This document shows positions 6,480 through 38,536 of a stretch of DNA of 64,000 bases, piece by piece. Within the stretch, counting starts at the first letter, position 1. Each line of letters begins with the position of its first letter. The position numbers and the translations under genes were made by a program. The notes under the pieces are model-generated. The model was not told the DNA's origin. It saw nothing but the letters and a program-made list of their open reading frames with translations, and made no database searches. This DNA is from Holophagales bacterium (GTDB taxonomy: Bacteria; Acidobacteriota; Thermoanaerobaculia; Multivoradales; UBA5704), in assembly GCA_031390755.1 (NCBI GenBank), contig JANMTS010000035.1, positions 28,758-92,757 on the forward strand, in the 5' to 3' direction.

Positions 6480-6550
6480 GATTTCGCCGCGGGACCAAAC
6501 ATTCCCCCGCGGCCCGTGTCTACAGACATTGGCATAGCGCCAACGCCTCG

Positions 6551-6593: not shown

Positions 6594-8396
6594 CTACGGG
6601 ATCGACTGGATTTCGCGGACGATCCGGAAGCCGGTGTTCTTGTTGTTGCGGTCACGCCCGCGAGGGCTTCTGGTCGAGGGCTGACAGTTTACCGGGGAGG
6701 AATCGAAAGCGCCTCCTGCCCTGATGGGCTCGCCCTGACCGCCCATCAAGCCAAGGCTCGGTGGCTGGTCGACCCACTCCCACACGTTGCCGAGCATGTC
6801 GTAAAGACCCCAATCGCTATTGCGGAAGGTGCCGGTCGGAGCGAGCTCGCTGTAGTCGTCGCCACGCAGGCAGTTCCCTCCTTCGCCATCCCCTGGGCCA
6901 CGGGCGGCGTATTCCCATTCCTCTTTCGTGGGGAGCCTGTACGCATTCGTCTGCTCCAACGCGTTCAACCTGCGGAAGAAATCCTTCGTCTCTACATAGG
7001 TCACGCTCCCCATCGGCAGGTCGTCTCCGCGCGGCTCCATGTCCTTCGCCGTGTTGGTCCCCATGATCTCCTCCCACTGCTTCTGGCTCACTTCGGTAGT
7101 TCCCATGCAAAAGGGCCTCGGGATGGTAACTTCGATCGGCGGCTCACCTTTCTTGCCGGAGCCCATCAGAAACTTTCCTGCCGGGATCCATGCCATTTCC
7201 ATGTCGACACCTACAGGAGACGGGCAATGGTTCTTCCAGGGAGCCCACATCCAGATACCAATCGAGAGGGCCAGAACCGACACGGCGAAGCCGATTCTTG
7301 CCCAGGGAATGGGTGGCCGAAAAAGCCGTCCGTCGGCAGCCCCTAGAAACAGGACAGGGATCGCCCAGTCCAGATCCTTTCCATTTCGCCGGACGTAAAG
7401 CGATCGGCGCGCTTCAGTCACAGCACGGTCCACAGGAGAACCTTTCGCCAACTCGCGGTAGAACCGCGACGCAAAAACAACGGCTGAATCGTCAGGAATT
7501 CTGGCTTGCATGGCCACCACAGCCGGTATCTCTTCTCTAATGAGGTTCTGTGCAACTCCCGAGAAGCGGTCGTCTCGACCTGCGCAGGCCCCTTCGCAAG
7601 CATTGAGGATCACCAGCCTCATGGAGGGGTGGGCCCGGAGCACGAAGGCAAGCGTTGCTCCAGACACAGCCACCGAGGGTTCCTCGCTGTCGCGGAGCAG
7701 GAGAACGCCTTCTCCCGTCGGTGCGAGGGAGCCGTGCCCCATGAAATGGAGCACGTGGAAGACGCCCTGAGCCAGAGCTTCGGCAAGCTCAGAGAGCGTC
7801 GGATTGTCAAGGCGTTTGATGTCCAGCTTTCTCCTCTGGGCAAGTGGAGCGAGACCCTGCCTGATCTCATCCCACTCGGTCTCCACGTCGAGTGGAACCT
7901 GAGATGCCACGTTTGAAACGACGACGAGGATACTCAGGGGGCCGGCCATTCGGACCGTGTCGACAGGTTTTGGAGATCCCAGGTACCGTACGATCGGGCT
8001 TCGTCTCCTCAAAGCGAGGAAGTCCCGTGAATCGTGCAACAGCTCGACAGGCCAATCGGACGTATCCGCGGCGCCCGAGCGAAATCGAAGACGCAGGCCC
8101 TGGCCTCTCTTGAGCCCATGCAGGGCGAGAGCTCGAAGCAGCGCAACATCTCCTGAAAAGACCGAGTCGAAGAGCCTCCTGCCAACTCTCTGAGCTGTTA
8201 CAGCTCCAGATTTGGGGTCAGAGAAGGCCAATCGGACCTGATCTAGCTCTTCCGCAGAGAGGGGATTGGTGATCACCGCGGACTTCTCCACTCCATCAGG
8301 AAGATGTCCTTGAACGCGATACCCAAGGCCCGCAGGGTTGTGGGCGATGGAAAGAAAAAGATCCGCATACCTCCAGACGAGCCGCTTCTCAACCAT
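6594..8396 (-). CDS. CHAT-domain (caspase-like clan CD) protein fused through a TM helix to a C-terminal FGE-sulfatase (formylglycine-generating-enzyme / SUMF1-like) domain
   Basis: 600 aa. Has the CHAT His/Cys dyad context VLHFMGHGSL ... MRLVILNACEGACAG and a hydrophobic helix IGFAVSVLALSIGIWMWAPW. The C-terminal FGE-fold motifs are MAWIPAGKFLMGS, YRLPTKEEWEYAARG, GNVWEWV and GGAF. An 8-nt overlap joins it to the upstream ORF. Confidence 0.75.
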   Translation of the reverse strand: MVEKRLVWRYADLFLSIAHNPAGLGYRVQGHLPDGVEKSAVITNPLSAEELDQVRLAFSDPKSGAVTAQRVGRRLFDSVFSGDVALLRALALHGLKRGQGLRLRFRSGAADTSDWPVELLHDSRDFLALRRRSPIVRYLGSPKPVDTVRMAGPLSILVVVSNVASQVPLDVETEWDEIRQGLAPLAQRRKLDIKRLDNPTLSELAEALAQGVFHVLHFMGHGSLAPTGEGVLLLRDSEEPSVAVSGATLAFVLRAHPSMRLVILNACEGACAGRDDRFSGVAQNLIREEIPAVVAMQARIPDDSAVVFASRFYRELAKGSPVDRAVTEARRSLYVRRNGKDLDWAIPVLFLGAADGRLFRPPIPWARIGFAVSVLALSIGIWMWAPWKNHCPSPVGVDMEMAWIPAGKFLMGSGKKGEPPIEVTIPRPFCMGTTEVSQKQWEEIMGTNTAKDMEPRGDDLPMGSVTYVETKDFFRRLNALEQTNAYRLPTKEEWEYAARGPGDGEGGNCLRGDDYSELAPTGTFRNSDWGLYDMLGNVWEWVDQPPSLGLMGGQGEPIRAGGAFDSSPVNCQPSTRSPRGRDRNNKNTGFRIVREIQSIP

Positions 8397-9300
8397 CGTT
8401 CAGGCTCCACAGGACCGCTTCCCAGAAGTCCCGGACCATCGCGTTTTCGACGACCTCGACCTCCTCGCTGACCGACAGGAGAACCTCCCGGGCCTCCCGG
8501 TGGCGGCCACAGGTGCATAGCGCCGAGGCCGCACGTGCCGCGCACTCGACTCGATCGTCCACCTTGACGGCACAGCTCATCGCGGCGCGGAAGGACTCGG
8601 CCGCGGCCTCCCGCTCCCCCGCCTCTTCCTCCCGATGCCCGAGCCACATGCGAATCTCCAGAGCCAGCGCCCGCAGCGCATCCTGGGGAACCCGCTCCGA
8701 AGCCCGCATCGCTTCCGTCAGCGTGGCTGCCTTCCGGACTAGAGCGATGCACCGCCGACGGCGCTCGGGCTTCTCGTCCAGCAGAAGCATCACATTGCCC
8801 AGCTTGAACCGCAGCAGGATCGCCTCGTAGAGCGAAAACGTATCCTTCCCTGCCGTCGCTTCATGAGCCAGCGCGTAGAGGGCCGCCGCCTGGGGCAGGC
8901 TCCTGTCAGTCTCGAAAACCGCTTCGGCCAGCAGAAACGAATGCCGGCGGATGCGGTCGCGCTCGCCGGGAGGAAGGCCAAGCTGGTCGAGCCGTTCCCG
9001 CGCCGCGCCCTCCAAGAGATCCCGGAGCCGCGACAGATCGGAAGACTCCAGGTCCAACAGCTGATCGCCTTCGAGGTTCAAACGCTCCAGCACGGCTTCA
9101 GCCAGCTCCGAGCCCGACGCGTGGTTGGCCAGAGCGTCCCAGTAACCGTGCTCCATCTCCGTATCGGGAACCCGGCGCGGCCCGAGCCAGGCTCTCAGCG
9201 CTTTCAGCGTGCCGGTCATGTCTCCCGAGAGGAGACGGTCCCAGTCAGGAGAGGAGGCTGTGTGGAAGCCCTCCTGATGGTGGCCCTTTCCGTTCTGCAT
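8389..9300 (-). CDS. Hypothetical all-alpha (TPR-like?) protein inside the CHAT/peptidase operon
   Basis: 303-aa ORF with no recognisable motif. It is directly adjacent (no gap) to the upstream peptidase gene and overlaps the downstream CHAT-FGE gene. Confidence 0.5.
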   Translation of the reverse strand: MQNGKGHHQEGFHTASSPDWDRLLSGDMTGTLKALRAWLGPRRVPDTEMEHGYWDALANHASGSELAEAVLERLNLEGDQLLDLESSDLSRLRDLLEGAARERLDQLGLPPGERDRIRRHSFLLAEAVFETDRSLPQAAALYALAHEATAGKDTFSLYEAILLRFKLGNVMLLLDEKPERRRRCIALVRKAATLTEAMRASERVPQDALRALALEIRMWLGHREEEAGEREAAAESFRAAMSCAVKVDDRVECAARAASALCTCGRHREAREVLLSVSEEVEVVENAMVRDFWEAVLWSLNDG

Positions 9301-10743
9301 TCAATCGAGGCTCCGCAGCATGCGCTTCTTCTTCCCGGCCGTGCGCAGCCTCACTGCGGGATCGCCGACGACGACGTAGTTTCGAGCGTCCTGGCTCTCA
9401 ATCCAGAGCTCGGCGAGGGCCTTTCGGTCCAGAGTGTCTTCAAGAAAGGCCTTCTTGAGTAGCTCTCCCAGAACCGTCGAGATGTCGGAGAATCGCTGGT
9501 TGAGCGGCTCCATGGCCCAGCCAACCCGGCCTCCACCAAGCAGCCGATTCATGGTCTCGACGAACGGGAGGATCTGTGAGCCCGTATCGCGCCAGAGAAA
9601 AGACTGCTGCCACACCTGCTCCACGTGGCCGATGACGGCCAGGGCTCCGCCATCCGGGTGGCTGAGCAGACGCTGCGCCAGGCTCGACACAAAGGGCTTC
9701 GGCGACACTGCCCGCATGTCTTCGACTCTGGAGGCAAAGTCATTGTTGACCGGAGTACCCGCGCTGTTGCAGGCAAACAGAAAGGCGATGAGGCCCAGCA
9801 AGCGGGCAGGCCCGTCAAGGTCAGCGGCCGAAAAGACATGCTCCGGCCCGGCAGCTTCCGTACACGGCCAGTCTTGGCATACGAGGGCGCCCTGGTGACT
9901 CCGTTGGCGAACATGTCCGTTCTTGTAGTAGACACCGTGACCAGCCGAGAACAGGAGATCCGGCGTCTCGTCTCCTCCGAGAAGTCGCCGCAGTCGCTCT
10001 TTGGTAGCCTTCTCTGCCAGGTAGGTCTCACACTGACAGCCAGGCTTGCCATCAAGCTCTTCGATCAGCGGCTTCAGCAATCGCTCATTGCTGACCTCGG
10101 TCCCCGCGTCCTGACAGGGGCCAAAAAAGGCGACCTTTGGACTCGGCTTGAACTCGTCCTCGGCTGCAACAACTGCCGCAGCGTAGGCAGCGAAAGCCTC
10201 TGGCGTCTCGAAGTGAACCCGCCCCACGGCATGGTGGTGATCGAGCCCATATTGGAATTCGAAGGGGATGTCCTCCGGACTGCCCACCAGAAGCAGGTAA
10301 TAGGGAACCTTCTTCGGATCGACTCTGCCGGGGCCAGCTCCCATGCGGGCGAGAAAATCCAGTTTGTCCTCGCCGCGGACATAACCCTTCTCGCCTGCGT
10401 AGATCTTGTAGAGAGAGCCTGCCTGTTCTCTGCGAAGCTTGAGCAGGGGCTCAAGAGCGTCGAGGCTCTCGGAGGCGAAGCGATCGGAGCCGGACACGAC
10501 GACGCCCCATCCGGCCTGGCTCAGATCGTTGGCGTCGACTCCGTCCTTGAGCTCGCGAACACGCCGCTTCTTCGACTTCGCGAGCCGCTCTAAGAGGATC
10601 TCCTCAACCTCGCGGGGGGAAACCGGTCGGCCGGTGTCTCCATCAATGCCACCCGCGCCGAGATTTGTCCTTGTGATCATCCGTGCACCTCCTGCGCAGG
10701 TCGCGGCAGGCGGGCCTTCACCCGCCTGCCAGCGGTTGGTCAC
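9301..10743 (-). CDS. Gingipain-like (peptidase C25-like) clan-CD cysteine peptidase, cytoplasmic (no signal peptide)
   Basis: 480 aa from GTG at 10743 (possible later start at MITRTNLG). Sequence blocks resemble the gingipain catalytic domain: YYLLLVGSPEDIPFEF (cf. YVLLIGDHKDIP), LLFSAGHGVYYKNGH (catalytic His) and LIAFLFACNSAGTP (catalytic Cys). GTGA overlap with the upstream small ORF. Confidence 0.6.
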   Translation of the reverse strand: MTNRWQAGEGPPAATCAGGARMITRTNLGAGGIDGDTGRPVSPREVEEILLERLAKSKKRRVRELKDGVDANDLSQAGWGVVVSGSDRFASESLDALEPLLKLRREQAGSLYKIYAGEKGYVRGEDKLDFLARMGAGPGRVDPKKVPYYLLLVGSPEDIPFEFQYGLDHHHAVGRVHFETPEAFAAYAAAVVAAEDEFKPSPKVAFFGPCQDAGTEVSNERLLKPLIEELDGKPGCQCETYLAEKATKERLRRLLGGDETPDLLFSAGHGVYYKNGHVRQRSHQGALVCQDWPCTEAAGPEHVFSAADLDGPARLLGLIAFLFACNSAGTPVNNDFASRVEDMRAVSPKPFVSSLAQRLLSHPDGGALAVIGHVEQVWQQSFLWRDTGSQILPFVETMNRLLGGGRVGWAMEPLNQRFSDISTVLGELLKKAFLEDTLDRKALAELWIESQDARNYVVVGDPAVRLRTAGKKKRMLRSLD

Positions 10744-10955
10744 TTGCCTTCGGTGGGATAACTCTGATTGCCCTTCGTGGTGGCGTCATCCTGAGCCGGA
10801 GCGGGTACTGCGCCAGCGACGGGATAGCTCTGGTTTCCCTTCCCTGTGCCGTCATCTTGGGCGGGTGCGGGATCTTCCCCCGGCGTGGGGTAGCTCTTGT
10901 TTCCCTTGGCCGTGACGTCACTCTGCGGATCCAACTGCGTGGTCTTGCCCTCCAT
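10740..10955 (-). CDS. Small hydrophilic tandem-repeat protein (3 x about 22-aa repeat KGN[KQ]SYP..PAPAQDD..), first gene of the peptidase operon
   Basis: 71 aa: MEGKTTQLDPQSDVTAKGNKSYPTPGEDPAPAQDDGTGKGNQSYPVAGAVPAPAQDDATTKGNQSYPTEGK. The DNA shows a 66-bp tandem repeat x3. Its stop overlaps the peptidase GTG start. Confidence 0.45.
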   Translation of the reverse strand: MEGKTTQLDPQSDVTAKGNKSYPTPGEDPAPAQDDGTGKGNQSYPVAGAVPAPAQDDATTKGNQSYPTEGK

Positions 10956-11117: not shown

Positions 11118-13394
11118 TCAGTAAGGCTCGCCCTGCAGCAAGAACGCGGCCCAGGCCTTGGGCAAGCTTAGCTGGGACGATCTTTCGCCACGCAGGGACA
11201 ATTGAGCAGCCCGGAGCGCCTCTGAGGGCGGGAGCTTCTCGACCAGCATCTGATGATAAAACCGCTCCATCAATTCCTTCGTCCAGTCGTCCCGGACATT
11301 CCATAGACTGACCACAACTCGCTTGGCCCCGGCATGGAGGAAGGCCCGCGTCATTCCCATCGGCCCCTCGCCTCGCACCCTGGGGCCCAGGCCGCTTCCA
11401 CAGGCGCTCAGGACGACCAATTCCGCAGGAAATTTGAGCTTGTAGATCTCCGAAGCTCGAAGCAGGCCCTCCTGCAACACTCCCCGGTGGTCGTAGCGAG
11501 ACAGCACGAGCCCGCTGAAGTCAGGGTGGTCGTTGTAGATGTGATGCGTGCTGATGTGCAGGATCTGGTAGAGCGACAGGGACGGATCCATGGCCGTAGC
11601 ACGGTTGGCCTCGAATCCAATCGCCAGAAATCGGTCGGAGGGCGGAACCAACTTGAGGATGGCGTCAGCCTCGTCAGCCGTATCGGGCAGTCGTGACAAA
11701 CTGCCATAGTCCAACTCTCCCACCAGCCCCCGACTCTGGCTTCGAGAGTCTATTTTGACGCCGTTCAACCTCCGGTCGTCCCGGTTGAAGACGGCGTCCG
11801 TCAGCAACGCCAGTTGTTTGGGTGCCGGCTGCCGGCCCGAGAGGTTCCGTCGCATCTCCACTTGATAGGAGGCTGAGGGCACGTAACTGATGATGTGTCG
11901 ATCGATCAGTTCGCCCCGAGTCGAGGGCAGCGCGGCAAATGGGATCTGATGCAGGGCACCGTCTGCTCGAACCAGGAGTCGCTTGCGGAGCAAGGGCTCT
12001 GCGGCAGCCGGAAGGATGGCGAGGGCCAGTTCCCTGGCCTTCCAACCACGGTTCCTGTCACTCGACAGCTCTCTCCACGTCTCCGCGGCCAGGCCTTCGA
12101 TGACGTTCCGGCCTTTCTTCAGGTCGAAGGCATCGATCCGGTCCGGATTGACCACCCACAGGTAGCTGCCACGCTCTCCGAGCGAATACGAGAGGAGAGT
12201 CGTCTCCTTGTCCAGAAGCTTTCGCTGAATCTCCTGGAGACGGCTCCCCTCTTCTCTACCAAAATCGTCCAATAGAGACCGTGAGTGCGACAGGTCGCTG
12301 ATCTCGAAGGCCTTCACGGCTCGACTGACATCCCGGTCGCGCCGATAGAGCTCCATGAAGAGTGTGACATAGAGGTCGTAGTACTTCTGCCGGAAGGAGA
12401 AGAAGCCGACCCGCGCCCCGACGTCTTCAAGGCCTGTGCGGCTTGCCTCAACTAGATCGATCGATCGCTTCAGCGAGGCCAGGGCATCCTCATATCGCCC
12501 GAGGTCGCGGAGGACCTCGGCTCGGCCGAAGAGCATAGACGCCTGGGCCAGAGGCTCCGGAACGGATTCAAGAAGCCTATAGGCTTCGTCAAATAGACGA
12601 AGGGCCTCGGATTCTCTCCCCTGGACATCCTCCAGATGAGCAAGATCCGCCAGGGAGAAAGCCTCCCAGCGAAGGCTCCCGGCTCGTCTTGCTGTGGATG
12701 CAGCCTCCTCCAAACCCTGTCTTGCCAGGGTCATCTTGCCTTGATCTCGGTAGACATTTCCGCGTCGCTGGAGGGTGCGAGCCCGGTCTTCCTGGTCCTG
12801 AGCCACTCTCAAGCCGTTCTCATAAGCCCACAAAGCTTTATCCAGCTTGTCGAGATCGTGGTACGCGAGACCCAAGCCATCGTAAACCATGCCCAGCACG
12901 TCCCGCCGAGATTCCACCTGGCTGAGCTTTCGAGCCTGCTCGTAGTACTTCAGGGCTTCTTCACTCAAACCGACCGTCAAGAGAAGTTGCCCGAGATCGC
13001 AGTTCGTCAGCGCCTGTTCAGAGGGTTCGTTTACCGAGGGCCAGATTTGAAGCGCTCGTCGATATTCGGTGAACGCAGTCTGAAGCTCGCCGCGATAGAA
13101 GGCGAGCGAGCCGTACCCATTGTGGGCCATTGCCAGCCCTCCCTGATCCCCTGCGGCCTCGGCCAACCTGAAGGCACGATCGTAGTGATCCTTTGCCTGT
13201 CTGGCGTCGACCTCTTCCAGCCGACGACCTGCCGCAATCTCTTTTCGGACTTCCGAGCTGCGGATCGGCCTCTTCGAGGTCGCCGGGCGTGAGGCAGGTG
13301 AGGGAGGAGTCCGAGAGTAGGGCTCGACGGGGGCGGTCGCCAAGCACGCCAGCAGCACTCCCGCAAGCGTGAATTTACAGCGGTTAAAGAGCAT
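11118..13394 (-). CDS. Secreted TPR-repeat protein with C-terminal CHAT domain
   Basis: 758 aa with a signal peptide (LAGVLLACLATAPVEP) and multiple TPR-like repeats (..ALKYYEQARKL.., ..ALWAYENGLRV..). The C-terminal CHAT region has LYQILHISTHHIY (His) and ELVVLSACGSGLG (Cys). Confidence 0.75.
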   Translation of the reverse strand: MLFNRCKFTLAGVLLACLATAPVEPYSRTPPSPASRPATSKRPIRSSEVRKEIAAGRRLEEVDARQAKDHYDRAFRLAEAAGDQGGLAMAHNGYGSLAFYRGELQTAFTEYRRALQIWPSVNEPSEQALTNCDLGQLLLTVGLSEEALKYYEQARKLSQVESRRDVLGMVYDGLGLAYHDLDKLDKALWAYENGLRVAQDQEDRARTLQRRGNVYRDQGKMTLARQGLEEAASTARRAGSLRWEAFSLADLAHLEDVQGRESEALRLFDEAYRLLESVPEPLAQASMLFGRAEVLRDLGRYEDALASLKRSIDLVEASRTGLEDVGARVGFFSFRQKYYDLYVTLFMELYRRDRDVSRAVKAFEISDLSHSRSLLDDFGREEGSRLQEIQRKLLDKETTLLSYSLGERGSYLWVVNPDRIDAFDLKKGRNVIEGLAAETWRELSSDRNRGWKARELALAILPAAAEPLLRKRLLVRADGALHQIPFAALPSTRGELIDRHIISYVPSASYQVEMRRNLSGRQPAPKQLALLTDAVFNRDDRRLNGVKIDSRSQSRGLVGELDYGSLSRLPDTADEADAILKLVPPSDRFLAIGFEANRATAMDPSLSLYQILHISTHHIYNDHPDFSGLVLSRYDHRGVLQEGLLRASEIYKLKFPAELVVLSACGSGLGPRVRGEGPMGMTRAFLHAGAKRVVVSLWNVRDDWTKELMERFYHQMLVEKLPPSEALRAAQLSLRGERSSQLSLPKAWAAFLLQGEPY

Positions 13395-14184
13395 TGATCT
13401 CGAAAGGCTTCTCGCTGATTAAGTGTTCTCCTGGATCATTCGCGAGCCGGCCGTAGGTCTTTGCCAGATAACGCCCTGCGGGAAGGGTTCCGCCAGGGAT
13501 GACGAATGAACCACTTGGCGAAGAGTTACCCTTGAAAGAGGTTCTCCAGACCTCGCGTTCACCTTGCAGGATCCGCCCTTCAAACAGGGCGTACTCATCC
13601 TTGGCATAAGATTGAACTGTGATGGCAACGTTTCCAGGGAAGAGATCCAAGTCCTCCTCTGACAATCCTCCTCGGGTCGGCGTAGTATCCAGCACATTGA
13701 TGGCCCCACCCTCGACCGTAGACCTTGGGGTGAGATTCAATCCACACAGGAGCCCTAGCCCCCCGGCTACAACCAAGGCAGCCGCTTGAGCCCAAAGGCG
13801 AGCCTTACGCCTCGATGGCGCTTCTGGGGATGGAGCCGTCACGGGAGCGCGGAACGGTAGCACCGCCGCAGCCTGCTCTTCCACCTCTCTCCTCTCCGCC
13901 GCCAGCTTCGCCTTCAACGCCTGCCAGTCCTCCTCCACCTCCGCATCGGTAAGCTCCGGCACTCCCGCAGGCGGGGCCAGGGTGGCGAAGCCGGCCAGAT
14001 CGAGGAGGAGGTCGCTGCAGTGCCGGCAGAGCGCCAGGTGCTGGCGGACGCGGGCTTCGGCCTCCGTGGGGAGGGAGCCTTCGTGGTAGGCGGTCAGCTC
14101 CCGGGGGGTGGCGTGCTCGGTGCTGCGCTCACGTTCCGCAAGGTGGCGGATCGCAGCGTTGAGGGATGGTTTTTCTTGGCTCAC
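13384..14184 (-). CDS. Anti-sigma factor (zf-HC2 putative zinc-finger, single TM)
   Basis: Motif HLALCRHCSDLL (zf-HC2) and a TM segment LWAQAAALVVAGGLGLLCGL. A likely GTG start at 14184 overlaps the sigma-factor stop. Its 3' end overlaps the TPR-CHAT start by 11 nt. Confidence 0.6.
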   Translation of the reverse strand: MSQEKPSLNAAIRHLAERERSTEHATPRELTAYHEGSLPTEAEARVRQHLALCRHCSDLLLDLAGFATLAPPAGVPELTDAEVEEDWQALKAKLAAERREVEEQAAAVLPFRAPVTAPSPEAPSRRKARLWAQAAALVVAGGLGLLCGLNLTPRSTVEGGAINVLDTTPTRGGLSEEDLDLFPGNVAITVQSYAKDEYALFEGRILQGEREVWRTSFKGNSSPSGSFVIPGGTLPAGRYLAKTYGRLANDPGEHLISEKPFEINAL

Positions 14185-14185
14185 G

Positions 14186-14770
14186 TCAATACTCTTCACT
14201 TGTAAAATAATTTCCCAGCCGGTCCCGGAGGTGCTGCCTTGCTTGATACAAGTGCGCCTTGACGGTCTCAATGGAGACGCTCATCTCCTCCGCGATCTCA
14301 CGATACTTCAAATCGCCGTCCACGCGCAGGAACACAGCCTTCTTCATCTGCGGCGGAAGCTCCGCCAGGGCGTCGCGAAGAAGCTTCTCCCGCTCGCGCC
14401 CCAGGATGGCCTCCAGCGGATCGTTTTCGCCTTCGCCGTCCAGGGCCACCGTTCCCGCTTCGGACTCCTCCAGGGGGATCTCCTCCCGGTCCCTCTTCAG
14501 GGTCCCTTGAGTCCGAAGCTGGTTCTTGTAGAGATTCGCCGCGATCTGGAACAGCCAGGTTTCGATGCTGCTGTCCCCGCGGAAGCTCTCTCTATTTCTA
14601 TAGACCCGAAGAAATGTCTCTTGGGCGAGGTCGCGGCTCTCATCCACCGAAAATCCCCGGCGGAGAAAGAAGGAGACGACCGGGCGGTGGTATCGCCGGA
14701 AGAGATCCTCAGCCACTACACCTGGAGTGTTGTCGTCGGATCCGAGGTCGTCCGTCATAACCATCGACAC
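14186..14770 (-). CDS. ECF-family RNA polymerase sigma-70 factor
   Basis: 194 aa with region 2 (FLRVYRNRESFRGDSSIETWLFQIAANLYKN) and region 4 (LPPQMKKAVFLRVDGDLKYREIAEEMSVSIETVKAHLYQARQHLR). Confidence 0.85.
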   Translation of the reverse strand: MSMVMTDDLGSDDNTPGVVAEDLFRRYHRPVVSFFLRRGFSVDESRDLAQETFLRVYRNRESFRGDSSIETWLFQIAANLYKNQLRTQGTLKRDREEIPLEESEAGTVALDGEGENDPLEAILGREREKLLRDALAELPPQMKKAVFLRVDGDLKYREIAEEMSVSIETVKAHLYQARQHLRDRLGNYFTSEEY

Positions 14771-14836: not shown

Positions 14837-15436
14837 CTACTTCTTGGCCGGGGCCGGGCCGTCGGCTTCGATCGAGATGGTGACCTTCACCTCGTCGCCC
14901 AGGATGGCGCCGCCGGTGTCGAGCGCCCGGTTCCAGGTGATGCCGTATTCCTTGCGGTCGACCTTGAAGGTGGTCTCGAAGCCGGCCTTCTCACCGCCCT
15001 GCGGAGTCTTCACCGTGCCGAGCACGTCGACCGGGATCGTCACCTTCTTGGTGACGCCCTTGATGGTCAGGTCGCCCGTGACTTCCAGGGTGTCTGCGTC
15101 CTTGGCCTTGACGGAGGTGCTGGTGAAGCTCCAGACGGGATTCTTCTCGACGCCGAAGAAGTCATCGCCGCGCAGGTGGTTGTCCCGGTCGCCGTTGCCG
15201 GTGTCGACCGACTTGGCCTGGACCTGGAAGCTGACGCTCGACGCCGCCGGATTGGCCTTGTCGTACTTGATGGTGCCGCTGAAGTCCGAGAAGCGGCCGG
15301 AGACGTTCGACACGAAGTGACGGATGGTGAAGTTCACGCCGCTGTGGCCGGCGTCGACCTTGTAGGTCTCGGCTGCCGCGAGGGCCGGCAGAAGAAGCGT
15401 CAGGGAAAGGGCTTGAAGAAGAGCTTTGCACCGCAT
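14837..15436 (-). CDS. YceI-family periplasmic polyisoprenoid-binding protein
   Basis: 199 aa with a signal peptide (LLLPALAAA). YceI-like blocks: YKVDAGHSGVNFTIRHFVSNVSGRF and GDLTIKGVTKKVTIPVD. Confidence 0.75.
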   Translation of the reverse strand: MRCKALLQALSLTLLLPALAAAETYKVDAGHSGVNFTIRHFVSNVSGRFSDFSGTIKYDKANPAASSVSFQVQAKSVDTGNGDRDNHLRGDDFFGVEKNPVWSFTSTSVKAKDADTLEVTGDLTIKGVTKKVTIPVDVLGTVKTPQGGEKAGFETTFKVDRKEYGITWNRALDTGGAILGDEVKVTISIEADGPAPAKK

Positions 15437-23015: not shown

Positions 23016-23028
23016 GCCGGTCAAATGC

Positions 23029-23611: not shown

Positions 23612-23993
23612 GGTCTTTCTTCTTTCTATGGGCTTATCGCGCCCACGGTTGTCCTTCAATGAACCTTGGTTCCGGTTTCCCGACCGGTCGACGTCACCTT
23701 TGTCGGTGTCTTGCGATCTCTGTCGAATGTCACGATGTATTCATGCTTGCCCTCCTTCTCCTCACGGACGGAAGCCTAAGACGGTCAATGACCGATGTCA
23801 AGAGGGAGATTTTTCGCTTTTTGACGAACCGATCCCGTACCGGGCTTTACCTGGCCCTACCTGGCCCTACCGGGCTATACGGAATTAGATGGAGCTTTAC
23901 GGAAATTGGCTGAAACTCGGAGCGGGGCGGTCGCCGTCCGGGTTGGCCGGCTTGCCGAAGGGTTCGGGGCGCCAGAGAGCTGGCTCTATTTCA

Positions 23994-24022
23994 TTGCAGT
24001 AACTTGCCACTCATGGCATATT
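23994..24022 (+). promoter_or_regulatory. Putative sigma70-like promoter for abiEi (-35 TTGCAG, 17-bp spacer, -10 CATATT) giving a leaderless or very short-leader transcript (ATG at 24029)
   Basis: Hexamers and spacing read directly. No experimental support. Confidence 0.3.
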
Positions 24023-24028
24023 GCTGCC

Positions 24029-24670
24029 ATGAAATTCGACCGACTGCTGGAGATCGTCGGCGAAGAGCCCGTCTTCGAGGCGGGGCTTCTTCTGGCGGGC
24101 GATGTCGACCCGGCCGATGTCCGCCGCCAGCTTTCCCGCTGGGAGGGTGCGGGCAAGCTGTTCCAGCTCCGCCGCGGTCTCTATGCCCTGGCTCCCCCGT
24201 ATCGGCGGGTTCTGCCCCATCCCTTCCTCGTCGCCAACCATCTGGTCCGCGGCTCCTACGTCAGTCTTCAGGCGGCCCTGGCCCACTACGGCCTGATTCC
24301 CGAGTCTGTGCCCGTGACCACCAGCGTGACCGCGGGCCGCCCCGGGCAGTGGGACACGCCTCTGGGAAGCTACCTCTACCGCCATCTCCGGCCCGATCTC
24401 CTGACCGGCTTCCGCCGGACGCCTCTCGCAGGCGGACAGGAGGCTCTCGTGGCCTCTCCCGAGAAGGCGCTTCTCGATCTTCTCTATCTGGAGCCGGACG
24501 CCGACACCGAGCCGTATCTGGCCGAGCTGCGTCTCCAGCATCTGGAGGGGTTGGATCTCGACGAGCTCCATCGCCTGGCGGAGCGGTTCGGAAAACCCAA
24601 GCTCTTGCGCGCCGCCGAGCGCGTGGCGCGACTGGCTGCTGTCGAGGCTGAGGAGTACGAGCCGCTGTGA
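24029..24670 (+). CDS. abiEi: Type IV toxin-antitoxin system AbiEi-family antitoxin (transcriptional regulator)
   Basis: 213 aa: MKFDRLLEIVGEEPVFEAGLLLAG..VRRQLSRWEGAGKLFQLRRGLYALAPPYRRVLPHPFLVANHLVRGSYVSLQAALAHYGLIPE. This is characteristic AbiEi/COG5340. A 4-bp overlap joins it to the downstream toxin. Confidence 0.8.
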   Translation: MKFDRLLEIVGEEPVFEAGLLLAGDVDPADVRRQLSRWEGAGKLFQLRRGLYALAPPYRRVLPHPFLVANHLVRGSYVSLQAALAHYGLIPESVPVTTSVTAGRPGQWDTPLGSYLYRHLRPDLLTGFRRTPLAGGQEALVASPEKALLDLLYLEPDADTEPYLAELRLQHLEGLDLDELHRLAERFGKPKLLRAAERVARLAAVEAEEYEPL

Positions 24671-25473
24671 GACGCGATCTGATCGATCTTCTGCGCGGCA
24701 GCGCGAGCCCCACCGAGAGCCGGAATCGCCTTCGCGAGCTGCTCCAGGCCCGGATTCTGTCGTCCCTCCAGCGCGCGGGAGCCATGGTGCCGCTCGCCTT
24801 CCAGGGCGGCACCGCCTTGCGGTTTCTCTACGGCATCGGCCGCTATTCGGAAGATCTGGACTTCGCCCTGGAGCGGCCTGACCGGGGTTACGACTTCCGC
24901 CCCTACCTCCAGAGGATTCAGGCCGATCTGCGGCAGGAGGGTTTCGAGACCGAAACCAAAGTGAACGACCAGAAAGTCATGCACAGCGCCTTCCTCGCCT
25001 TTCCGGGCCTGCTCTTCGAGGCCGACCTCTCCCCCCATTCCAACGAGAAGCTCTCGGTCAAGATCGAGGTCGACACGCGACCGCCGTCCGGAGCCGTTCT
25101 CGAAACCAGCGTGGTCCGCCGGCATGCGACGCTCCAGCTCCAGCATCACGACAAAGCCTCCCTGCTCGCCGGAAAGCTCCACGCGATCCTCCAGCGCCCT
25201 TATGTGAAGGGCCGGGATCTCTACGACCTGATCTGGTACTTGAGCGACCGTTCCTGGCCGGCCCCGAATCTCGCGCTGCTCAACAACGCCCTCGCGCAAA
25301 GCCAATGGACGGAGGGTCCCCTGACCCCGGAGACCTGGAAGGAGCGGGCCGCCGAGAGGCTTCAGGGAATCGACTGGGAGAGAGTCCTGGCCGATGTCCG
25401 GCCATTTCTCGAAGACGCGAGAGAGATCGAAATCCTCACGCGGGAGAATGCCTTGCGGCTGCTGAACGGGTGA
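24667..25473 (+). CDS. abiEii: Nucleotidyltransferase AbiEii/AbiGii-family toxin (DUF1814)
   Basis: 268 aa with the GT-type nucleotidyltransferase motif FQGGTALRFLYGIGRYSEDLDFAL. The operon arrangement with AbiEi is typical. Confidence 0.8.
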   Translation: MRRDLIDLLRGSASPTESRNRLRELLQARILSSLQRAGAMVPLAFQGGTALRFLYGIGRYSEDLDFALERPDRGYDFRPYLQRIQADLRQEGFETETKVNDQKVMHSAFLAFPGLLFEADLSPHSNEKLSVKIEVDTRPPSGAVLETSVVRRHATLQLQHHDKASLLAGKLHAILQRPYVKGRDLYDLIWYLSDRSWPAPNLALLNNALAQSQWTEGPLTPETWKERAAERLQGIDWERVLADVRPFLEDAREIEILTRENALRLLNG

Positions 25474-28708: not shown

Positions 28709-30178
28709 ATGCCCCTTACATTCAGGATTCGAGCCGTCCGCCTCCTTCTCATCACCTGCCTCGGGTGTCTTCCCGGGGCCGCCGCCGCGTTCGCCCAGCC
28801 TGATCTCTTTCCCCTCCGGGGGGAGGTGACCGGCTGGAATGGGCCGATCGCCGGAGCCACGCTCACCCTGGAGATGGAAGGCCTGCCGCCGAAGACGATC
28901 GTCACGGACGAGTCCGGCCTGTTCCTCTTCGAGGGGCTGCCCGCCGGGCCGTACCGCCTGAAGATCGTGGTTCCCGGGATCAACCCCTTCGAGCATGTCG
29001 GCGTCATCGACGCCCTGACGACCCGGGAGGAGCTCGTCGTCAATTGTCACCTCATCCGCGACGGCGGCCGCGGCACGGTGACGAGCCGGCCGCTGGCTGA
29101 GGCGACTCCAAGCTTCGAGGTTCTGCCGGTGCCGCCGCTCCAGCCGCGGGACGACGAGGGCTTCGCCGAGGTGGAGATCTTCTATGGCACGGACCGGAAG
29201 CTCCGCTCGGGCGACCCGGTGGAGACGCGCTTCGGACCGCAGCGGATGTCGTGGCCCGGCATCCACCTGGGCATCGGGCGGGTCAGCATCCCGCGCGACC
29301 ACCGGATGGGGCAGATCGAGCGGCCGTCCATCTGGAAGCTGGAATTCACGCCGGACCCGCGCGAGCACGTGGTGCTCCTCGGAGTCGAGCCGCTCAACAA
29401 GCAGACGTTCTATCAGCGCCTCCGGGGGAAGCTCGGGAAGTCGGGGGAGAAGGAGCTGATGGTCTTCGTCCACGGCTTCAACGTCTCGTTCCACGACGCG
29501 GCCCTGCGCACGGGCCAGCTCGCCTACGACCTCGGCCTGGACGGCGCGCCGGTCCTCTACAGCTGGCCGTCGATGGGATCGGTCAACAGCTACACGGTCG
29601 ACGAGGCTTCGGTGGAGTGGACGGTGCCGCACCTGGAAGGTTTCCTGCGCGATCTATCGGAGCGCTCGGGGGCGCGGTCGATCTATCTGATCGCGCACAG
29701 CATGGGGAACCGCGCGATGACCCGCGCTCTGGAGCGCATTGCGCTCAAGATGAAGGCCGGCGCGAAGGCGCCGTTCCACCAGATCGTGCTCACCGCGCCG
29801 GACGTGGACGCGGATGTCTTCGCGGACCTGGCGAAGAGCTTTCGCCGGACCGCCGAGCGGGTGACGCTCTACGCGTCGTCGAACGACGAGGCGCTCAAGG
29901 TTTCCAAGAAGATTCACGGCTACCCGCGGGCCGGGGAGACCACTCCGAACGTGCTGATCGTGCCGGGGGTGGACACGATCGACGTCTCCACCGTGGACAC
30001 GAGCTTCCTGGGCCACTCGTACTTCGGGGACAGCTGCTCGGTCATCGCCGACCTCACGACGCTGCTGCGGAAGCGCCAGCCGCCGGAACGGCGCACCGGG
30101 CTGACGAAGAAGCAGAAGGCGGCGAATCTGTCGTACTGGGCGTTTGCCGGGGCGGACGCGTGCCCGACGGCGCCGTAA
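28709..30178 (+). CDS. Secreted alpha/beta-hydrolase of DUF900 family with N-terminal carboxypeptidase-regulatory-like beta-sandwich domain (paralog 1)
   Basis: 489 aa with a signal peptide. GATLTLEMEGLPPKTIVTDESGLFLFEGLPAGPYRLKI (CarbopepD_reg-like). Hydrolase blocks FVHGFNVSF and LIAHSMGNRA (GxSxG). AGGAGA RBS 8 nt upstream. Confidence 0.65.
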   Translation: MPLTFRIRAVRLLLITCLGCLPGAAAAFAQPDLFPLRGEVTGWNGPIAGATLTLEMEGLPPKTIVTDESGLFLFEGLPAGPYRLKIVVPGINPFEHVGVIDALTTREELVVNCHLIRDGGRGTVTSRPLAEATPSFEVLPVPPLQPRDDEGFAEVEIFYGTDRKLRSGDPVETRFGPQRMSWPGIHLGIGRVSIPRDHRMGQIERPSIWKLEFTPDPREHVVLLGVEPLNKQTFYQRLRGKLGKSGEKELMVFVHGFNVSFHDAALRTGQLAYDLGLDGAPVLYSWPSMGSVNSYTVDEASVEWTVPHLEGFLRDLSERSGARSIYLIAHSMGNRAMTRALERIALKMKAGAKAPFHQIVLTAPDVDADVFADLAKSFRRTAERVTLYASSNDEALKVSKKIHGYPRAGETTPNVLIVPGVDTIDVSTVDTSFLGHSYFGDSCSVIADLTTLLRKRQPPERRTGLTKKQKAANLSYWAFAGADACPTAP

Positions 30179-37234: not shown

Positions 37235-38536
37235 ATGCACACAATGAATCGTGAGCTTCTCCTCGAACGATACCGAGCCACCCGCAACCTGACGCTCGAC
37301 CTCTGCCGCCCTCTCCGCGCGGAGGACTACCGCATCCAGTCCATGCCGGACGTCAGCCCGCCGTGGTGGAATCTCGGCCATACCACCTGGTTCTTCGCCA
37401 AGAACGTCCTCGAGCCGTTCGGCCGCTATCTGCCGGAGGACGCCCGGCTCGAATTCGTCATGAACTCCTACTACGAGGCCCTCGGACCGCGCATCCAGCG
37501 CGACCACCGCGGCCTCGTCTCGCGGCCGACCAACGACGAGGTCTACCGCTTCCGCGAGTCGGTCGACGCCCGCATGGAGGAGCTGATCCGCGGCGCCTCC
37601 GAGGACGACCTGCCGCAGCTCGAATTCCTCGTCGTGACGGGCGTCCAGCACGAGCAGCAGCACCAGGAGCTGCTGGTCACCGAGATCAAGCACATCCTGG
37701 GCAGCAACGGTCCGGAGATGCGCGAGCCCTACCGGGAAGCAACGGCTGAGCCGCACAAGGCTCCAGAGGCCAGTTGGGTGTCGTTCGAGGGCGGGCTGCA
37801 GGAGATCGGCAACCTGGACGGCGGCTGGTGCTGGGACAACGAGGTGCCGATCCACAAGGCCTGGCTCGACGGCTTCCGCCTTCTCAACCGGCTGGTCACG
37901 AACCGGGACTACCTGGAGTTCATGGAGGACGGCGGTTACACCAATCCGCTCCTCTGGCTGTCGAACGGCTGGGCCAGGGTTCGCGAGCACGACTGGACCG
38001 CTCCGCTGTACTGGGAGAAGGATGGAAACGGCTGGCGGTCGTGGACGCTCTCCGGCACGCGCGCGGTTGATCCCGACGAGCCGGTCTGCCATGTGAGCTT
38101 CTACGAGGCCGAGGCCTATGCCCGCTGGAAGGGCGCGCGCCTGCCCACCGAGCGCGAGTGGGAGCACGCGTCGCGGGTCGCGGGGTTTCCCGGCAAAAGC
38201 GCTGGCAAGGACGCGGGCAAGGACGCCAACTTCCTCGACACCGGCGCCCTGCACCCCCGGGCTCCCCGCGGAGACGCCGACGGCTCGCTCGTCCAGATGG
38301 GCGGCGACGTCTGGGAGTGGACGACCAGCCACTACGAGCCCTATCCCGGCTACCGGCCGTTCGAAGGCGTCCTGATGGAGTACAACGGCAAATTCATGGA
38401 CAATCAGAGGGTGCTGCGCGGCGGCTCGTGCGCCACGCCGGCCAATCACATCCGCGCCAGCTACCGGAACTTCTGGCCCGCCGACGCCCGGTTCCAGTTC
38501 ACGGGCATCCGGCTGGCGAAGGACGGAGGCGAATAG
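37235..38536 (+). CDS. egtB: EgtB-like non-heme iron sulfoxide synthase (DinB_2 + FGE-sulfatase fold; ergothioneine/ovothiol-type)
   Basis: 433 aa. DinB-like N-terminal domain with NLGHTTWFF and VTGVQHEQQHQELL (His metal ligands). C-terminal FGE-like domain VSFYEAEAYARWKGARLPTEREWEHA, GDVWEWTTSHYEPYPGY, RGGSCATP. No egtD/egtC is adjacent. Confidence 0.65.
   Translation: MHTMNRELLLERYRATRNLTLDLCRPLRAEDYRIQSMPDVSPPWWNLGHTTWFFAKNVLEPFGRYLPEDARLEFVMNSYYEALGPRIQRDHRGLVSRPTNDEVYRFRESVDARMEELIRGASEDDLPQLEFLVVTGVQHEQQHQELLVTEIKHILGSNGPEMREPYREATAEPHKAPEASWVSFEGGLQEIGNLDGGWCWDNEVPIHKAWLDGFRLLNRLVTNRDYLEFMEDGGYTNPLLWLSNGWARVREHDWTAPLYWEKDGNGWRSWTLSGTRAVDPDEPVCHVSFYEAEAYARWKGARLPTEREWEHASRVAGFPGKSAGKDAGKDANFLDTGALHPRAPRGDADGSLVQMGGDVWEWTTSHYEPYPGYRPFEGVLMEYNGKFMDNQRVLRGGSCATPANHIRASYRNFWPADARFQFTGIRLAKDGGE

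What the first reader, a model, noticed from the sequence alone, without database searches (positions are those of the whole stretch)
6594..8396. CHAT protease fused to an extracytoplasmic FGE-sulfatase-fold domain through one TM helix
The topology is an N-terminal cytoplasmic CHAT domain (HG..C dyad present), a single hydrophobic helix (IGFAVSVLALSIGIWMWAPW), then an FGE/SUMF1-like domain with the hallmark YRLPTEAEWEYAARG and GNVWEWV blocks. FGE-fold domains fused to kinases or caspases are thought to act as ligand sensors or peptide-modifying modules. This fusion would couple an extracellular sensing or modifying domain to an intracellular protease, which is unusual.
Basis: partly seen in the sequence, partly recalled or inferred. 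Interest (0 to 1): 0.6.

Follow-up and report, generated by a model that had tools for sequence, protein, structure and literature searches.

The report
Membrane caspase-like protease with outside sensor
This gene encodes a caspase-like (CHAT) protease on the inner face of the membrane, joined by one membrane helix to an outward-facing domain that has the fold of a sulfatase-maturing enzyme but lacks its catalytic cysteine pair, so it is probably a ligand sensor; the design is common in environmental bacteria, and its gene neighbourhood is more interesting than the fusion.

Summary
Window 6594..8396 (minus strand) is a 600-aa ORF with three parts: CHAT (His221/Cys267 invariant in 43/43 homologues), one conserved hydrophobic helix (res 365-387), and an FGE-sulfatase-fold domain (res 400-594).

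Four indirect lines support an N-in/C-out topology, but no topology predictor was available: conservation of the helix, positive-inside charge bias, two co-varying Cys pairs found only in the C-terminal half, and a confident AF2 helix.

The FGE-like domain is not a formylglycine-generating enzyme. Human Cys336 aligns to Ser566 and is never Cys in the family. It is also not EgtB-like, because it has no DinB domain. It most resembles non-catalytic binding modules (PvdO, TvpA). "Sensing" is therefore favoured over "modifying".

The fusion is not unusual. At least 59 clusters at 50% identity share CHAT-TM-FGE. Caspase+FGE fusions were described in 2012, and HetF is CHAT-TM-TPR.

Apparently undescribed is the conserved Thermoanaerobaculia/Holophagales locus: ECF sigma, anti-sigma, secreted TPR-CHAT, repeat peptide, C25-like protease, TPR-like partner, CHAT-TM-FGE. 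Its envelope-exposed genes are deeply diverged between otherwise near-identical genomes.

Verdict: new variant of a known kind; moderate interest.

The parts
6594..8396 (-). CHAT-TM-FGE gene (600 aa), the finding itself
   Evidence: ORF list and translation; Pfam; AF2 mean pLDDT 88.9
8061..8396 (-). N-terminal beta/alpha subdomain (res 1-112) that precedes the Pfam CHAT match and is conserved together with it
   Evidence: AF2 strands 9-42 and helices 48-93, pLDDT >85; aligned in CHAT relatives that carry other C-terminal domains
7350..8060 (-). CHAT caspase-like protease domain (res 113-349); catalytic His221 at nt 7734-7736 and Cys267 at nt 7596-7598
   Evidence: Pfam; H217/H221/G222/C267 invariant in 43/43; Foldseek hits to SAVED-CHAT 8tl0, Csx29 8eey, separase and DdvA 8rot
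7236..7304 (-). Single predicted transmembrane helix (res 365-387)
   Evidence: KD 1.78; AF2 helix 365-384; hydrophobic segment present in 41/43 homologues; flanking K+R 3.07 on the N side against 1.86 on the C side
6615..7199 (-). FGE-sulfatase-fold (C-type-lectin-like) domain, res 400-594, predicted periplasmic and non-catalytic; conserved Cys391, 430, 509, 571
   Evidence: Pfam; Foldseek hits to PvdO 5hha, TvpA 2y3c and human FGE 1y1h; alignment with human FGE; Cys co-variation
8389..9300 (-). h303: 303-aa all-helical TPR-like protein, translationally coupled to the target (8-nt overlap) and always immediately upstream of it
   Evidence: AF2 pLDDT 89.9, 16 helices; Foldseek hits to LGN/Pins and Rap TPR proteins; 68 clusters of constant length; adjacency in L002, L003, L005, L089, L090, L091
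9301..10680 (-). C25-like (gingipain-type, clan CD) protease, 459 aa, no signal peptide; putative dyad motifs SAGHG and FACNSAG
   Evidence: Weak Pfam Peptidase_C25 hit (26.8 bits, cut-off 23); gene call; orthologues in L002-L008 and L012
10740..10955 (-). Small hydrophilic ORF (71 aa) with three KGN[KQ]SYPxxG repeats
   Evidence: Gene call; the equivalent ORF in 7 loci carries 2-6 KG-x-x-[SA]-Y repeats
11118..13394 (-). TPR-CHAT protein (758 aa) with a hydrophobic N-terminus (signal peptide or lipobox-like LLAC), predicted periplasmic
   Evidence: Pfam CHAT E 8e-57 plus TPRs; N-terminal hydrophobic segment; compare the periplasmic TPR-CHAT of DdvA
13384..14184 (-). Anti-sigma factor (zf-HC2 N-terminus, one TM, short periplasmic tail)
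   Evidence: Pfam zf-HC2; TM segment KD 1.85; NCBIfam anti-sigma hits
14186..14764 (-). ECF sigma-70 factor
   Evidence: Sigma70_r2/r4; NCBIfam sigma70-ECF 96.8 bits, cut-off 42.9

Best explanation
The gene encodes a single-pass (N-in/C-out) membrane protease. An active caspase-like CHAT domain (His221/Cys267) sits in the cytoplasm. One helix crosses the inner membrane. A compact, disulfide-stabilised domain with the FGE/C-type-lectin fold is exposed in the periplasm. That outer domain has lost what makes FGE or EgtB an enzyme, so it is most likely a ligand-binding sensor, like the FGE-fold modules of PvdO, TvpA and the FGS sensors of bacterial conflict systems.

Inferred mechanism: ligand binding outside changes the oligomeric or conformational state of the protein and switches on the cytoplasmic CHAT protease, which cleaves a cytoplasmic target. 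The translationally coupled TPR-like protein encoded just upstream probably supplies in trans the TPR scaffold that is fused to CHAT in separase, craspase and DdvA, and would recruit or gate the substrate. In this lineage the protein belongs to a seven-gene locus, and its output may feed that locus's ECF sigma/anti-sigma switch or its C25-like protease and repeat peptide.

Shown here: domain composition, conserved dyad, conserved helix, loss of the FGE Cys pair, absence of a DinB domain, and conserved gene order. Inferred: topology, ligand gating, the role of the TPR partner, and the substrate.
For: Domains and dyad.

Topology: a hydrophobic segment in 41/43 homologues; positive-inside bias with the N flank richer in K+R in 31/43, equal in 7 and poorer in 5; AF2 helix 365-384 between two confidently folded domains; four conserved Cys only in the C-terminal half, with C391/C430 lost together in the same 7 sequences and C509/C571 kept in 41/43, which fits two extracytoplasmic disulfides. 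FGE-fold proteins such as PvdO and PorK/GldK, named in the Foldseek and NCBIfam hit lists, are known to be periplasmic (established knowledge, not tested here).

Non-catalytic FGE fold: human C336 aligns to S566 and is never Cys in the family; a stretch of about 46 residues of human FGE has no counterpart in the alignment; no DinB domain, whereas the window's genuine EgtB-type gene at 37235..38536 has DinB_2+FGE.

Sensor-effector grammar: the same CHAT module (37-43% identity) is fused in other proteins to TIR, SIR2, EAD1/EAD7, nSTAND1, trypsin, CBM9 and FHA. The literature treats FGE/C-type-lectin domains as sensors attached to proteases (PMC7159879; PMC10907252; PMC12642450; PMC13581612).

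Partner: h303 is TPR-like and lies immediately upstream in every locus examined. Twelve contig lengths are shared between the two homologue lists.

Precedents for a CHAT-sigma connection: DdvA; craspase structures with Csx29/Csx30 are among the fold hits.
Against: No experimental or dedicated topology prediction was possible, and the query's own helix is only moderately hydrophobic (simple Hessa-scale sum about +2.4 kcal/mol including the terminal Pro). No ligand, substrate or cleavage site is known. The sigma/anti-sigma link is not universal: distant CHAT-FGE loci (L007, L008) and a standalone Caldilineaceae gene (L016) lack it. Soluble CHAT-FGE variants without a helix exist, so membrane insertion is not essential to the pairing. 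One retained Cys (C571) aligns with catalytic C341 of FGE, so some thiol chemistry cannot be strictly excluded.
Confidence: 0.6

Rival explanations
1. The periplasmic FGE-fold domain is a working enzyme (an oxidase or peptide-modifying module, as in FGE, EgtB or PvdO-type chemistry), and the protein couples extracytoplasmic modification with cytoplasmic proteolysis. For example, it could mature the repeat peptide encoded in the locus.
For: The Pfam FGE-sulfatase match is strong. One Cys (C571) aligns with catalytic C341 of human FGE and is kept in 41/43 homologues. NCBI names homologues 'SUMF1/EgtB/PvdO family nonheme iron enzyme', and NCBIfam describes PvdO as a dihydropyoverdine dehydrogenase. 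A small multi-repeat peptide is encoded in the same locus.
Against: The second catalytic Cys (C336) is Ser566 and is never Cys in 43 homologues. C571 co-varies with C509 like a disulfide partner. There is no DinB iron domain. The repeat peptide has no Cys, no CxPxR-type motif and no signal peptide, so it would not reach the periplasm unaided. All NCBIfam enzyme models score far below their cut-offs.
Confidence: 0.08
2. The hydrophobic segment is not a membrane helix, and both domains are cytoplasmic, as in most DGR-type CHAT/caspase-C-type-lectin proteins. The FGE-fold domain would then sense an intracellular (for example phage) molecule.
For: Soluble CHAT-FGE relatives exist (P0081, P0099, P0101 with EAD1, L016). 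Most cyanobacterial C-type-lectin variable proteins are predicted cytosolic (PMC7517822). The query's helix has modest hydrophobicity.
Against: A 19-23-residue hydrophobic stretch sits at the same position in 41/43 homologues despite only 30% sequence identity there. There is a positive-inside bias. Four conserved paired Cys occur only downstream of the helix. AF2 models the segment as an isolated helix.
Confidence: 0.06
3. Role-level alternative: the protein is mainly an anti-phage or abortive-infection (or kin-discrimination) receptor whose CHAT domain kills or arrests the cell when the periplasmic domain detects an invader. It would not be a regulator of the ECF sigma switch.
For: The CHAT module clusters with conflict-system CHATs fused to TIR, SIR2, EADs and nSTAND. 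PADLOC SAVED_CHAT hits the protease part. The envelope-exposed genes of the locus are deep alleles between near-identical genomes (dS 1.5-2.7 against 0.2-0.26 in flanks), which suggests an arms race. GC dips across the module.
Against: No known defence system is recognised. The locus sits at one fixed, vertically inherited chromosomal site next to housekeeping genes in all the lineages sampled, unlike typical mobile defence islands. dN/dS is 0.13-0.19, which indicates purifying selection.
Confidence: 0.25

Closest known systems
Metacaspase/orthocaspase (Peptidase_C14)-FGE-sulfatase fusions (Asplund-Samuelsson et al. 2012, PMC3501461)
   Same: A clan-CD caspase-like protease lies N-terminal to an FGE-sulfatase-fold domain. 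Cyanobacterial variants have TM helices between the two domains. Function is uncharacterised.
   Different: The protease here is CHAT (PF12770), not C14. There is one helix rather than a pair. The organism is an acidobacterial lineage, and the gene has dedicated partners in its locus.
FGS/C-type-lectin sensor domains of bacterial conflict systems and DGR variable proteins (TvpA 2y3c; Kaur et al. 2020 PMC7159879; Doré et al. 2024 PMC10907252)
   Same: A C-terminal non-catalytic FGE-fold module, always placed C-terminal to an effector such as CHAT or caspase, and proposed to bind invader ligands. Some are predicted periplasmic. The fold matches TvpA.
   Different: No template-repeat copy was found in the 64-kb window. 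The C-terminal region that would correspond to a variable region is conserved between the window protein and P0001. No vWA-MoxR or STAND partner was seen among the locus genes or the other window ORFs scanned against Pfam.
HetF of Anabaena (CHAT-TM-TPR divisome protein, PMC8406250)
   Same: N-terminal CHAT, one TM helix, C-terminal non-protease domain. It is the best NCBIfam hit for the protease part.
   Different: The score is 89.7 against a cut-off of 1200, so this is not an equivalog. The C-terminal domain is FGE-fold rather than TPR, and the TPR-like protein is a separate polypeptide.
DdvS/DdvA of Myxococcus xanthus (ECF sigma plus anti-sigma with periplasmic TPR-CHAT, PMC11506125; PDB 8rot)
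   Same: An ECF sigma, a zinc anti-sigma domain, one TM and a periplasmic TPR-CHAT at one locus. The CHAT fold matches.
   Different: Here the anti-sigma factor and the TPR-CHAT are separate genes. The target protein has the opposite arrangement (CHAT inside, sensor outside). No CBASS or CRISPR-Cas genes are adjacent.
Human FGE/SUMF1 and bacterial FGEs (1y1e, 5nxl)
   Same: The fold and the RLPTxxEWEY / GNxWEW motifs.
   Different: The Cys336/Cys341 pair is not retained (S566/C571), and a stretch of about 46 residues has no counterpart in the alignment. It is not a catalytic FGE.
Craspase Csx29 (TPR-CHAT) and separase
   Same: The CHAT fold, and the use of a TPR scaffold to position the substrate. 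Csx29 appears in complex with Csx30 among the fold hits. That Csx30 cleavage controls a sigma-factor regulator is my recollection of the craspase literature, not something tested or read here.
   Different: Those proteins are soluble and cytoplasmic with a fused TPR, and are gated by RNA or securin. Here the protease is membrane-anchored, the TPR is in trans, and gating is presumed to come from a periplasmic domain.

Membership tests
CHAT / clan CD caspase-like peptidases (PF12770) | Profile match above the curated threshold | tested here: met
   88.2 bits against a cut-off of 24, res 113-349
CHAT / clan CD caspase-like peptidases (PF12770) | His-Cys catalytic dyad (His-Gly ... Cys) | tested here: met
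   H221-G222 and C267 invariant in 43/43 homologues
CHAT / clan CD caspase-like peptidases (PF12770) | Caspase/separase-type fold | tested here: met
   AF2 model matches SAVED-CHAT 8tl0 (E 3e-13), Csx29 8eey, separase 5fc3 and DdvA 8rot
CHAT / clan CD caspase-like peptidases (PF12770) | Proteolytic activity | not testable with these tools
   Needs biochemistry
Formylglycine-generating enzyme (SUMF1-type) | FGE-sulfatase fold / PF03781 match | tested here: met
   91.9 bits against a cut-off of 23.3; Foldseek to 1y1h E 5e-11
Formylglycine-generating enzyme (SUMF1-type) | Catalytic Cu(I)-binding cysteine pair (human Cys336 and Cys341) | tested here: not met
   MAFFT alignment with the human sequence, itself verified 100% against 1Y1E. 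C336 aligns to S566, which is S/I/M/A/Y in the family and never Cys. C341 aligns to C571.
EgtB/OvoA sulfoxide synthases | N-terminal DinB-like domain carrying the iron-binding His triad | tested here: not met
   No DinB match, and only about 12 residues lie between the helix and the FGE fold. The window's real EgtB-type gene (37235..38536) has DinB_2+FGE. The EgtB NCBIfam model scores 26 against a cut-off of 360.
DGR variable proteins (C-type-lectin/FGE fold with a variable region) | Template repeat matching the 3' variable region, and a nearby reverse transcriptase | tested here: not met
   No repeat of the gene's 3' 700 nt in the 64-kb window apart from a 40-nt match to the EgtB gene. A reverse transcriptase was not searched for systematically.
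HetF (NCBIfam NF045509) | Equivalog-level profile score | tested here: not met
   89.7 bits against a cut-off of 1200; only the CHAT-TM-X layout is shared
SAVED-CHAT (CBASS / type III CRISPR effector) | SAVED cyclic-oligonucleotide sensor fused to CHAT | tested here: not met
   The PADLOC SAVED_CHAT hit covers only the protease part (res 178-353), and Pfam finds no SAVED domain
Single-pass N-in/C-out membrane proteins | One membrane-spanning helix with positive-inside flanks | tested here: inconclusive
   Consistent by hydropathy, conservation, charge bias, AF2 helix and Cys pattern, but no dedicated predictor or experiment

The most novel reading that the evidence does not exclude
The seven-gene locus (ECF sigma, anti-sigma, secreted TPR-CHAT, multi-repeat KG..SY peptide, cytoplasmic C25-like protease, TPR-like adaptor, CHAT-TM-FGE) would be an undescribed trans-envelope proteolytic cascade. 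It would use three clan-CD proteases in three compartments. Its periplasm-exposed components would be swapped as deeply diverged alleles between otherwise near-identical genomes, which is the signature of a self/non-self or phage-recognition locus fixed in the core genome of Thermoanaerobaculia/Holophagales.
Probability: 0.3. Interest if true: 0.7.

Novelty: new variant of a known kind. Interest (0 to 1): 0.42.

Why it matters
Caspase-like proteases fused to FGE-fold sensor domains are widespread in bacteria, yet none has a known ligand, substrate or demonstrated topology. This family offers a compact case that could be tested. It has an apparently active CHAT domain, one helix, a small disulfide-bonded outer domain, an obligate TPR-like partner, and candidate substrates encoded in the same locus. 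If the periplasmic domain does gate a cytoplasmic caspase-like protease, it would be a bacterial analogue of receptor-driven caspase activation across a membrane. The allele-like divergence of the envelope-exposed genes suggests that what is sensed varies between strains.

Tried and rejected
- **DGR diversification: rejected.** Repeat finding over the whole window and sensitive blastn of the gene's 3' 700 nt found no template-repeat-like copy. The only hit, 40 nt at 38302-38340, is the GNxWEW-coding region of the window's EgtB-type gene.
- **Known defence systems: none recognised.** PADLOC gave only a CHAT-part hit to SAVED_CHAT and a weak BovA hit. Nothing was found for h303 or the C25-like protein.
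- **NCBIfam naming: no model reached its cut-off**.
- **Promoter/terminator scan of 6200-15600:** counts were at shuffle level and uninformative.
- **PDB sequence searches:** noise only for the C25-like protein; only generic TPR matches for the TPR-CHAT neighbour.
- **Genome-contig scan with the family alignment:** it returned mostly single-domain matches. Only the Holophagales MAG (L009) and a Caldilineaceae MAG (L016) were near full length.
- **Foldseek against afdb50:** the library was unavailable.
- **Disulfide geometry:** it could not be measured because model coordinates are not exposed. Co-variation was used instead.
- **Literature:** a search for 'CHAT domain' plus 'FGE-sulfatase' in one paper returned nothing. 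Broader searches found the relevant work.
Full report
**1. What is there**

Window 6594..8396 is a 600-aa ORF on the minus strand. Pfam finds CHAT (PF12770, res 113-349, E 8.6e-25) and FGE-sulfatase (PF03781, res 400-594, E 6.6e-26), both far above their curated cut-offs.

Between them lies the quoted stretch IGFAVSVLALSIGIWMWAPW (res 368-387). It is the most hydrophobic 19-mer in the protein (Kyte-Doolittle 1.78).

GNVWEWV is exact. The ATG overlaps the stop codon of the upstream gene by 8 nt, and homologues start at the same position.

**2. Protease half**

In an alignment of 43 full-length homologues (A1), H217, H221, G222 and C267 are invariant.

An AlphaFold2 model built on that alignment has mean pLDDT 88.9. 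Its N-terminal 360 residues match SAVED-CHAT (8tl0, E 3e-13), Csx29 of craspase (8eey), separase and the periplasmic CHAT of the anti-sigma factor DdvA (8rot). All sequence-level signs point to an active clan-CD protease.

The same CHAT module (37-43% identity over res ~1-360) occurs in other proteins fused to TIR plus EAD7, EAD1 plus FGE-sulfatase, nSTAND1, SIR2, CBM9, RDD, trypsin and FHA. This is the variable-partner pattern described for bacterial conflict systems (PMC7159879).

**3. Helix and topology**

No TMHMM-type predictor was available, so the evidence is indirect.

- A hydrophobic segment occupies the same alignment position in 41 of 43 homologues, although that region is only 30% identical between the closest pair.
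- Flanking K+R average 3.07 on the N side and 1.86 on the C side. The N side is richer in 31 sequences, equal in 7 and poorer in 5.
- AF2 models res 365-384 as a lone helix between two confidently folded domains.
- The C-terminal half carries exactly four Cys in 33 of 43 sequences. C391 and C430 are missing together in the same seven distant members, while C509 and C571 are kept in 41-43 of 43. This is the pattern expected of two disulfides and hence of an oxidising compartment.
- A 365-residue folded N-terminal domain without a signal peptide can only stay in the cytoplasm.

N-in/C-out is therefore the best reading. The query's helix is only moderately hydrophobic, so I keep this as a strong inference rather than a demonstration.

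**4. FGE-fold half**

I then aligned it with the family.

- Catalytic Cys336 aligns with Ser566, which is S/I/M/A/Y in the family and never Cys.
- Cys341 aligns with C571, the residue that behaves as the disulfide partner of C509.
- About 46 residues of human FGE (res ~150-195) have no counterpart in the family.
- There is no DinB-like domain, and only about 12 residues separate the helix from the first strand. The window contains a canonical EgtB-type gene with DinB_2+FGE at 37235..38536 as an internal contrast.
- All NCBIfam enzyme models (PvdO, EgtB, OvoA) score far below their cut-offs.
- Structurally the domain is closest to PvdO, to the DGR variable protein TvpA, and then to human FGE.
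- No template-repeat-like copy exists in the window.

The domain is thus an FGE-fold, C-type-lectin-like module without the known catalytic apparatus. A binding or sensing role is favoured, and the "modifying" option is disfavoured.

**5. How common the fusion is**

- Among the best 120 clusters at 90% identity, about 60 carry both Pfam domains. Most are from Thermoanaerobaculia/Acidobacteriota MAGs, with others from Limisphaerales and Caldilineaceae.
- An exhaustive HMMER search of 1.84 billion representatives gave 5,615 hits at E<=1e-30. Among the 142 newly returned top representatives (50% identity clusters), simple motif rules find at least 73 with both the CHAT dyad and the GNxWEW motif. 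Of these, 59 have a hydrophobic linker with KD>=1.6.
- Soluble variants also exist: P0101 with EAD1, and L016, a standalone Caldilineaceae gene.
- Caspase(C14)+FGE-sulfatase fusions were catalogued in 2012 as 4.9% of prokaryotic metacaspases, with TM-containing cyanobacterial variants (PMC3501461).
- CHAT+C-type-lectin proteins are DGR targets (PMC7517822, PMC10907252).
- Proteases fused to FGE sensors are noted in Pepco systems (PMC12642450), and FGE-sulfatase-like sensors in STAND receptors (PMC13581612).
- HetF, the founding CHAT protein, is CHAT-TM-TPR (PMC8406250).

The fusion is therefore not unusual, although none of these proteins has been characterised functionally.

**6. Neighbourhood**

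The gene is the last of a co-directional cluster on the minus strand:

- YceI (14837..15436)
- ECF sigma (14186..14764)
- zf-HC2 anti-sigma with one TM (13384..14184)
- TPR-CHAT with a signal-peptide-like N-terminus (11118..13394)
- a 71-aa hydrophilic ORF (10740..10955)
- a 459-aa C25-like clan-CD protease with HG and FACNS motifs (9301..10680)
- a 303-aa protein, h303 (8389..9300)
- the target

The same order, at the same chromosomal site between PDH-E1/YceI and an M28 peptidase/Iso_dh, recurs in L002, L003/L009 (Holophagales MAG), L005, L089 and L091. A fragmented form is present in L090.

More distant CHAT-FGE genes (L007, L008) still sit beside TPR-CHAT and C25-like genes but lack the sigma pair.

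h303 forms a tight family: 68 clusters, 47-86% identity, length 301-306 aa. Twelve contig lengths are shared with the CHAT-FGE list. Its AF2 model (pLDDT 89.9) is an all-helical TPR-like solenoid that matches LGN/Pins and Rap receptors.

Because TPRs are fused to CHAT in separase, craspase and DdvA, I read h303 plus the target as a split TPR-CHAT. This is an inference.

The upstream trio of sigma, anti-sigma and secreted TPR-CHAT resembles a split version of DdvS/DdvA (PMC11506125).

**7. An unexpected pattern**

Between the window and its closest relative (L002), nucleotide identity changes sharply along the locus:

- 91-95% through YceI, the sigma gene and the first ~290 nt of the anti-sigma gene
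- 48-66% from there through the TPR-CHAT, the small ORF and the C25-like gene
- 75-84% in h303
- 57-73% in the target
- 89% again just past the target's 3' end

Synonymous divergence is 0.20-0.26 in the flanks, 1.5 in the target and 2.6-2.7 in the TPR-CHAT and C25-like genes. dN/dS is only 0.13-0.19 in those three genes and 0.55 in the anti-sigma gene.

A second pair (L003 against L005) shows flanking genes at 83-93% amino-acid identity, but the target at 45%, TPR-CHAT at 46% and anti-sigma at 50%. GC content dips to 0.60-0.63 exactly over 6-14 kb.

The envelope-exposed proteins thus behave as old, purified alleles exchanged within a conserved frame, not as merely fast-evolving genes. This rests on only two genome pairs and is suggestive, not proven.

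The small ORF carries 2-6 tandem KG-x-x-[SA]-Y repeats in all seven loci. It could be a multi-site substrate or a peptide precursor for the adjacent gingipain-like protease.

**8. Mechanism and verdict**

Most likely (about 0.6) the protein is a ligand-gated transmembrane protease. Its periplasmic non-catalytic FGE-fold sensor would control a cytoplasmic CHAT domain that works with the TPR-like partner. The target is unidentified and is probably encoded in the locus.

Whether the output is control of the ECF sigma switch (precedents: DdvA, and craspase as I recall it from the literature) or a defence or cell-death response cannot be decided here.

Rivals are a catalytic outer domain (about 0.08) and a fully cytoplasmic protein (about 0.06).

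What is new is this acidobacterial variant and its locus. Novelty: new variant of a known kind. Interest is about 0.4, rising to about 0.7 if the locus proves to be a three-compartment protease cascade with allelic recognition components.

Noticed in passing
window 10740-10955 (-); equivalents in L002 4963-5115, L003 7477-7644, L005 7349-7627, L089 7190-7585, L090 7429-7593, L091 7408-7575: A small hydrophilic ORF just upstream of the C25-like protease gene carries 2-6 tandem repeats of a KG-x-x-[SA]-Y motif (KGNQSYP three times in the window). Copy number varies between loci. It has no signal peptide and no Cys. It could be a multi-site protease substrate or a multi-core peptide precursor.
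   Followed up: partly
window ~6600-13900 compared with L002; L003 compared with L005: Mosaic divergence. Flanking genes are 91-95% identical at the nucleotide level (dS 0.2-0.26). The anti-sigma C-terminal part, TPR-CHAT, C25-like gene and CHAT-TM-FGE are 48-73% identical (dS 0.8-2.7) with dN/dS of 0.13-0.19 in the last three and 0.55 in the anti-sigma gene. The break lies inside the anti-sigma gene after its sigma-binding domain. GC dips to 0.60-0.63 over the same span. This suggests allelic exchange of the envelope-exposed components.
   Followed up: partly
window 25545-25823: Four copies of a 37-nt repeat, GTCGCAATCCCACCGTGCTGA(T/C)CAGGGCATTTCCGAC, with 35-43-nt unique spacers: a CRISPR-like mini-array. 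It lies next to an AbiEi/AbiEii toxin-antitoxin pair (23906..24670, 24667..25473). No cas genes appeared among the neighbouring ORFs scanned.
   Followed up: partly
window 37235-38536 (+): A canonical EgtB-type gene (DinB_2 + FGE-sulfatase, 433 aa). It is the organism's genuine FGE-fold enzyme and served as an internal contrast for the target's truncated domain.
   Followed up: partly
window 18307-21795 (-): A 1162-aa protein with double zinc ribbon, adenylate/guanylate cyclase, AAA_16 (STAND-like) and TPR domains. It is a large signalling NTPase next to the PDH E1 gene.
   Followed up: no
window 28567-31035: A tandem duplication of about 1.6 kb (80-92% identity) that includes a DUF900 alpha/beta-hydrolase gene with a CarboxypepD_reg domain (28709..30178) and its upstream region.
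   Followed up: no
window 26876-27260; 52176-52370; 62967-63217: Three short-period tandem repeat arrays: 21 nt in about 13 or more copies, 15 nt in about 9 copies (inside an ORF), and 21-nt TGATGCGACAAACAGG-type repeats near the window end (iteron-like).
   Followed up: no
window 22269-22368, 23028-23124, 56044-56119: A repeated palindromic element of about 100 nt (CGTAGGGGCAACCCTTGTGGTTGCCC...GGGCGGCCACAAGAGCCGCCCC), 96-98% identical between two copies. It looks like a REP/MITE-type intergenic repeat.
   Followed up: no
L090 (ERZ25039503 contig_31101) 4290-11793: In this MAG the same locus appears fragmented: anti-sigma split into 102 + 99 aa, TPR-CHAT cut to 473 aa, and CHAT-FGE split into 170 + 416 aa. 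This is either pseudogenisation of the system or frameshift errors in the assembly.
   Followed up: no
L007 3318-5369 and 19257-21542; L008 13203-21062: The distant CHAT-FGE loci sit in clusters rich in other clan-CD proteases (Peptidase_C14, CHAT-NACHT, CHAT-C25, several TPR-CHATs), next to OmpA and CsgG-like genes. These look like protease islands.
   Followed up: no
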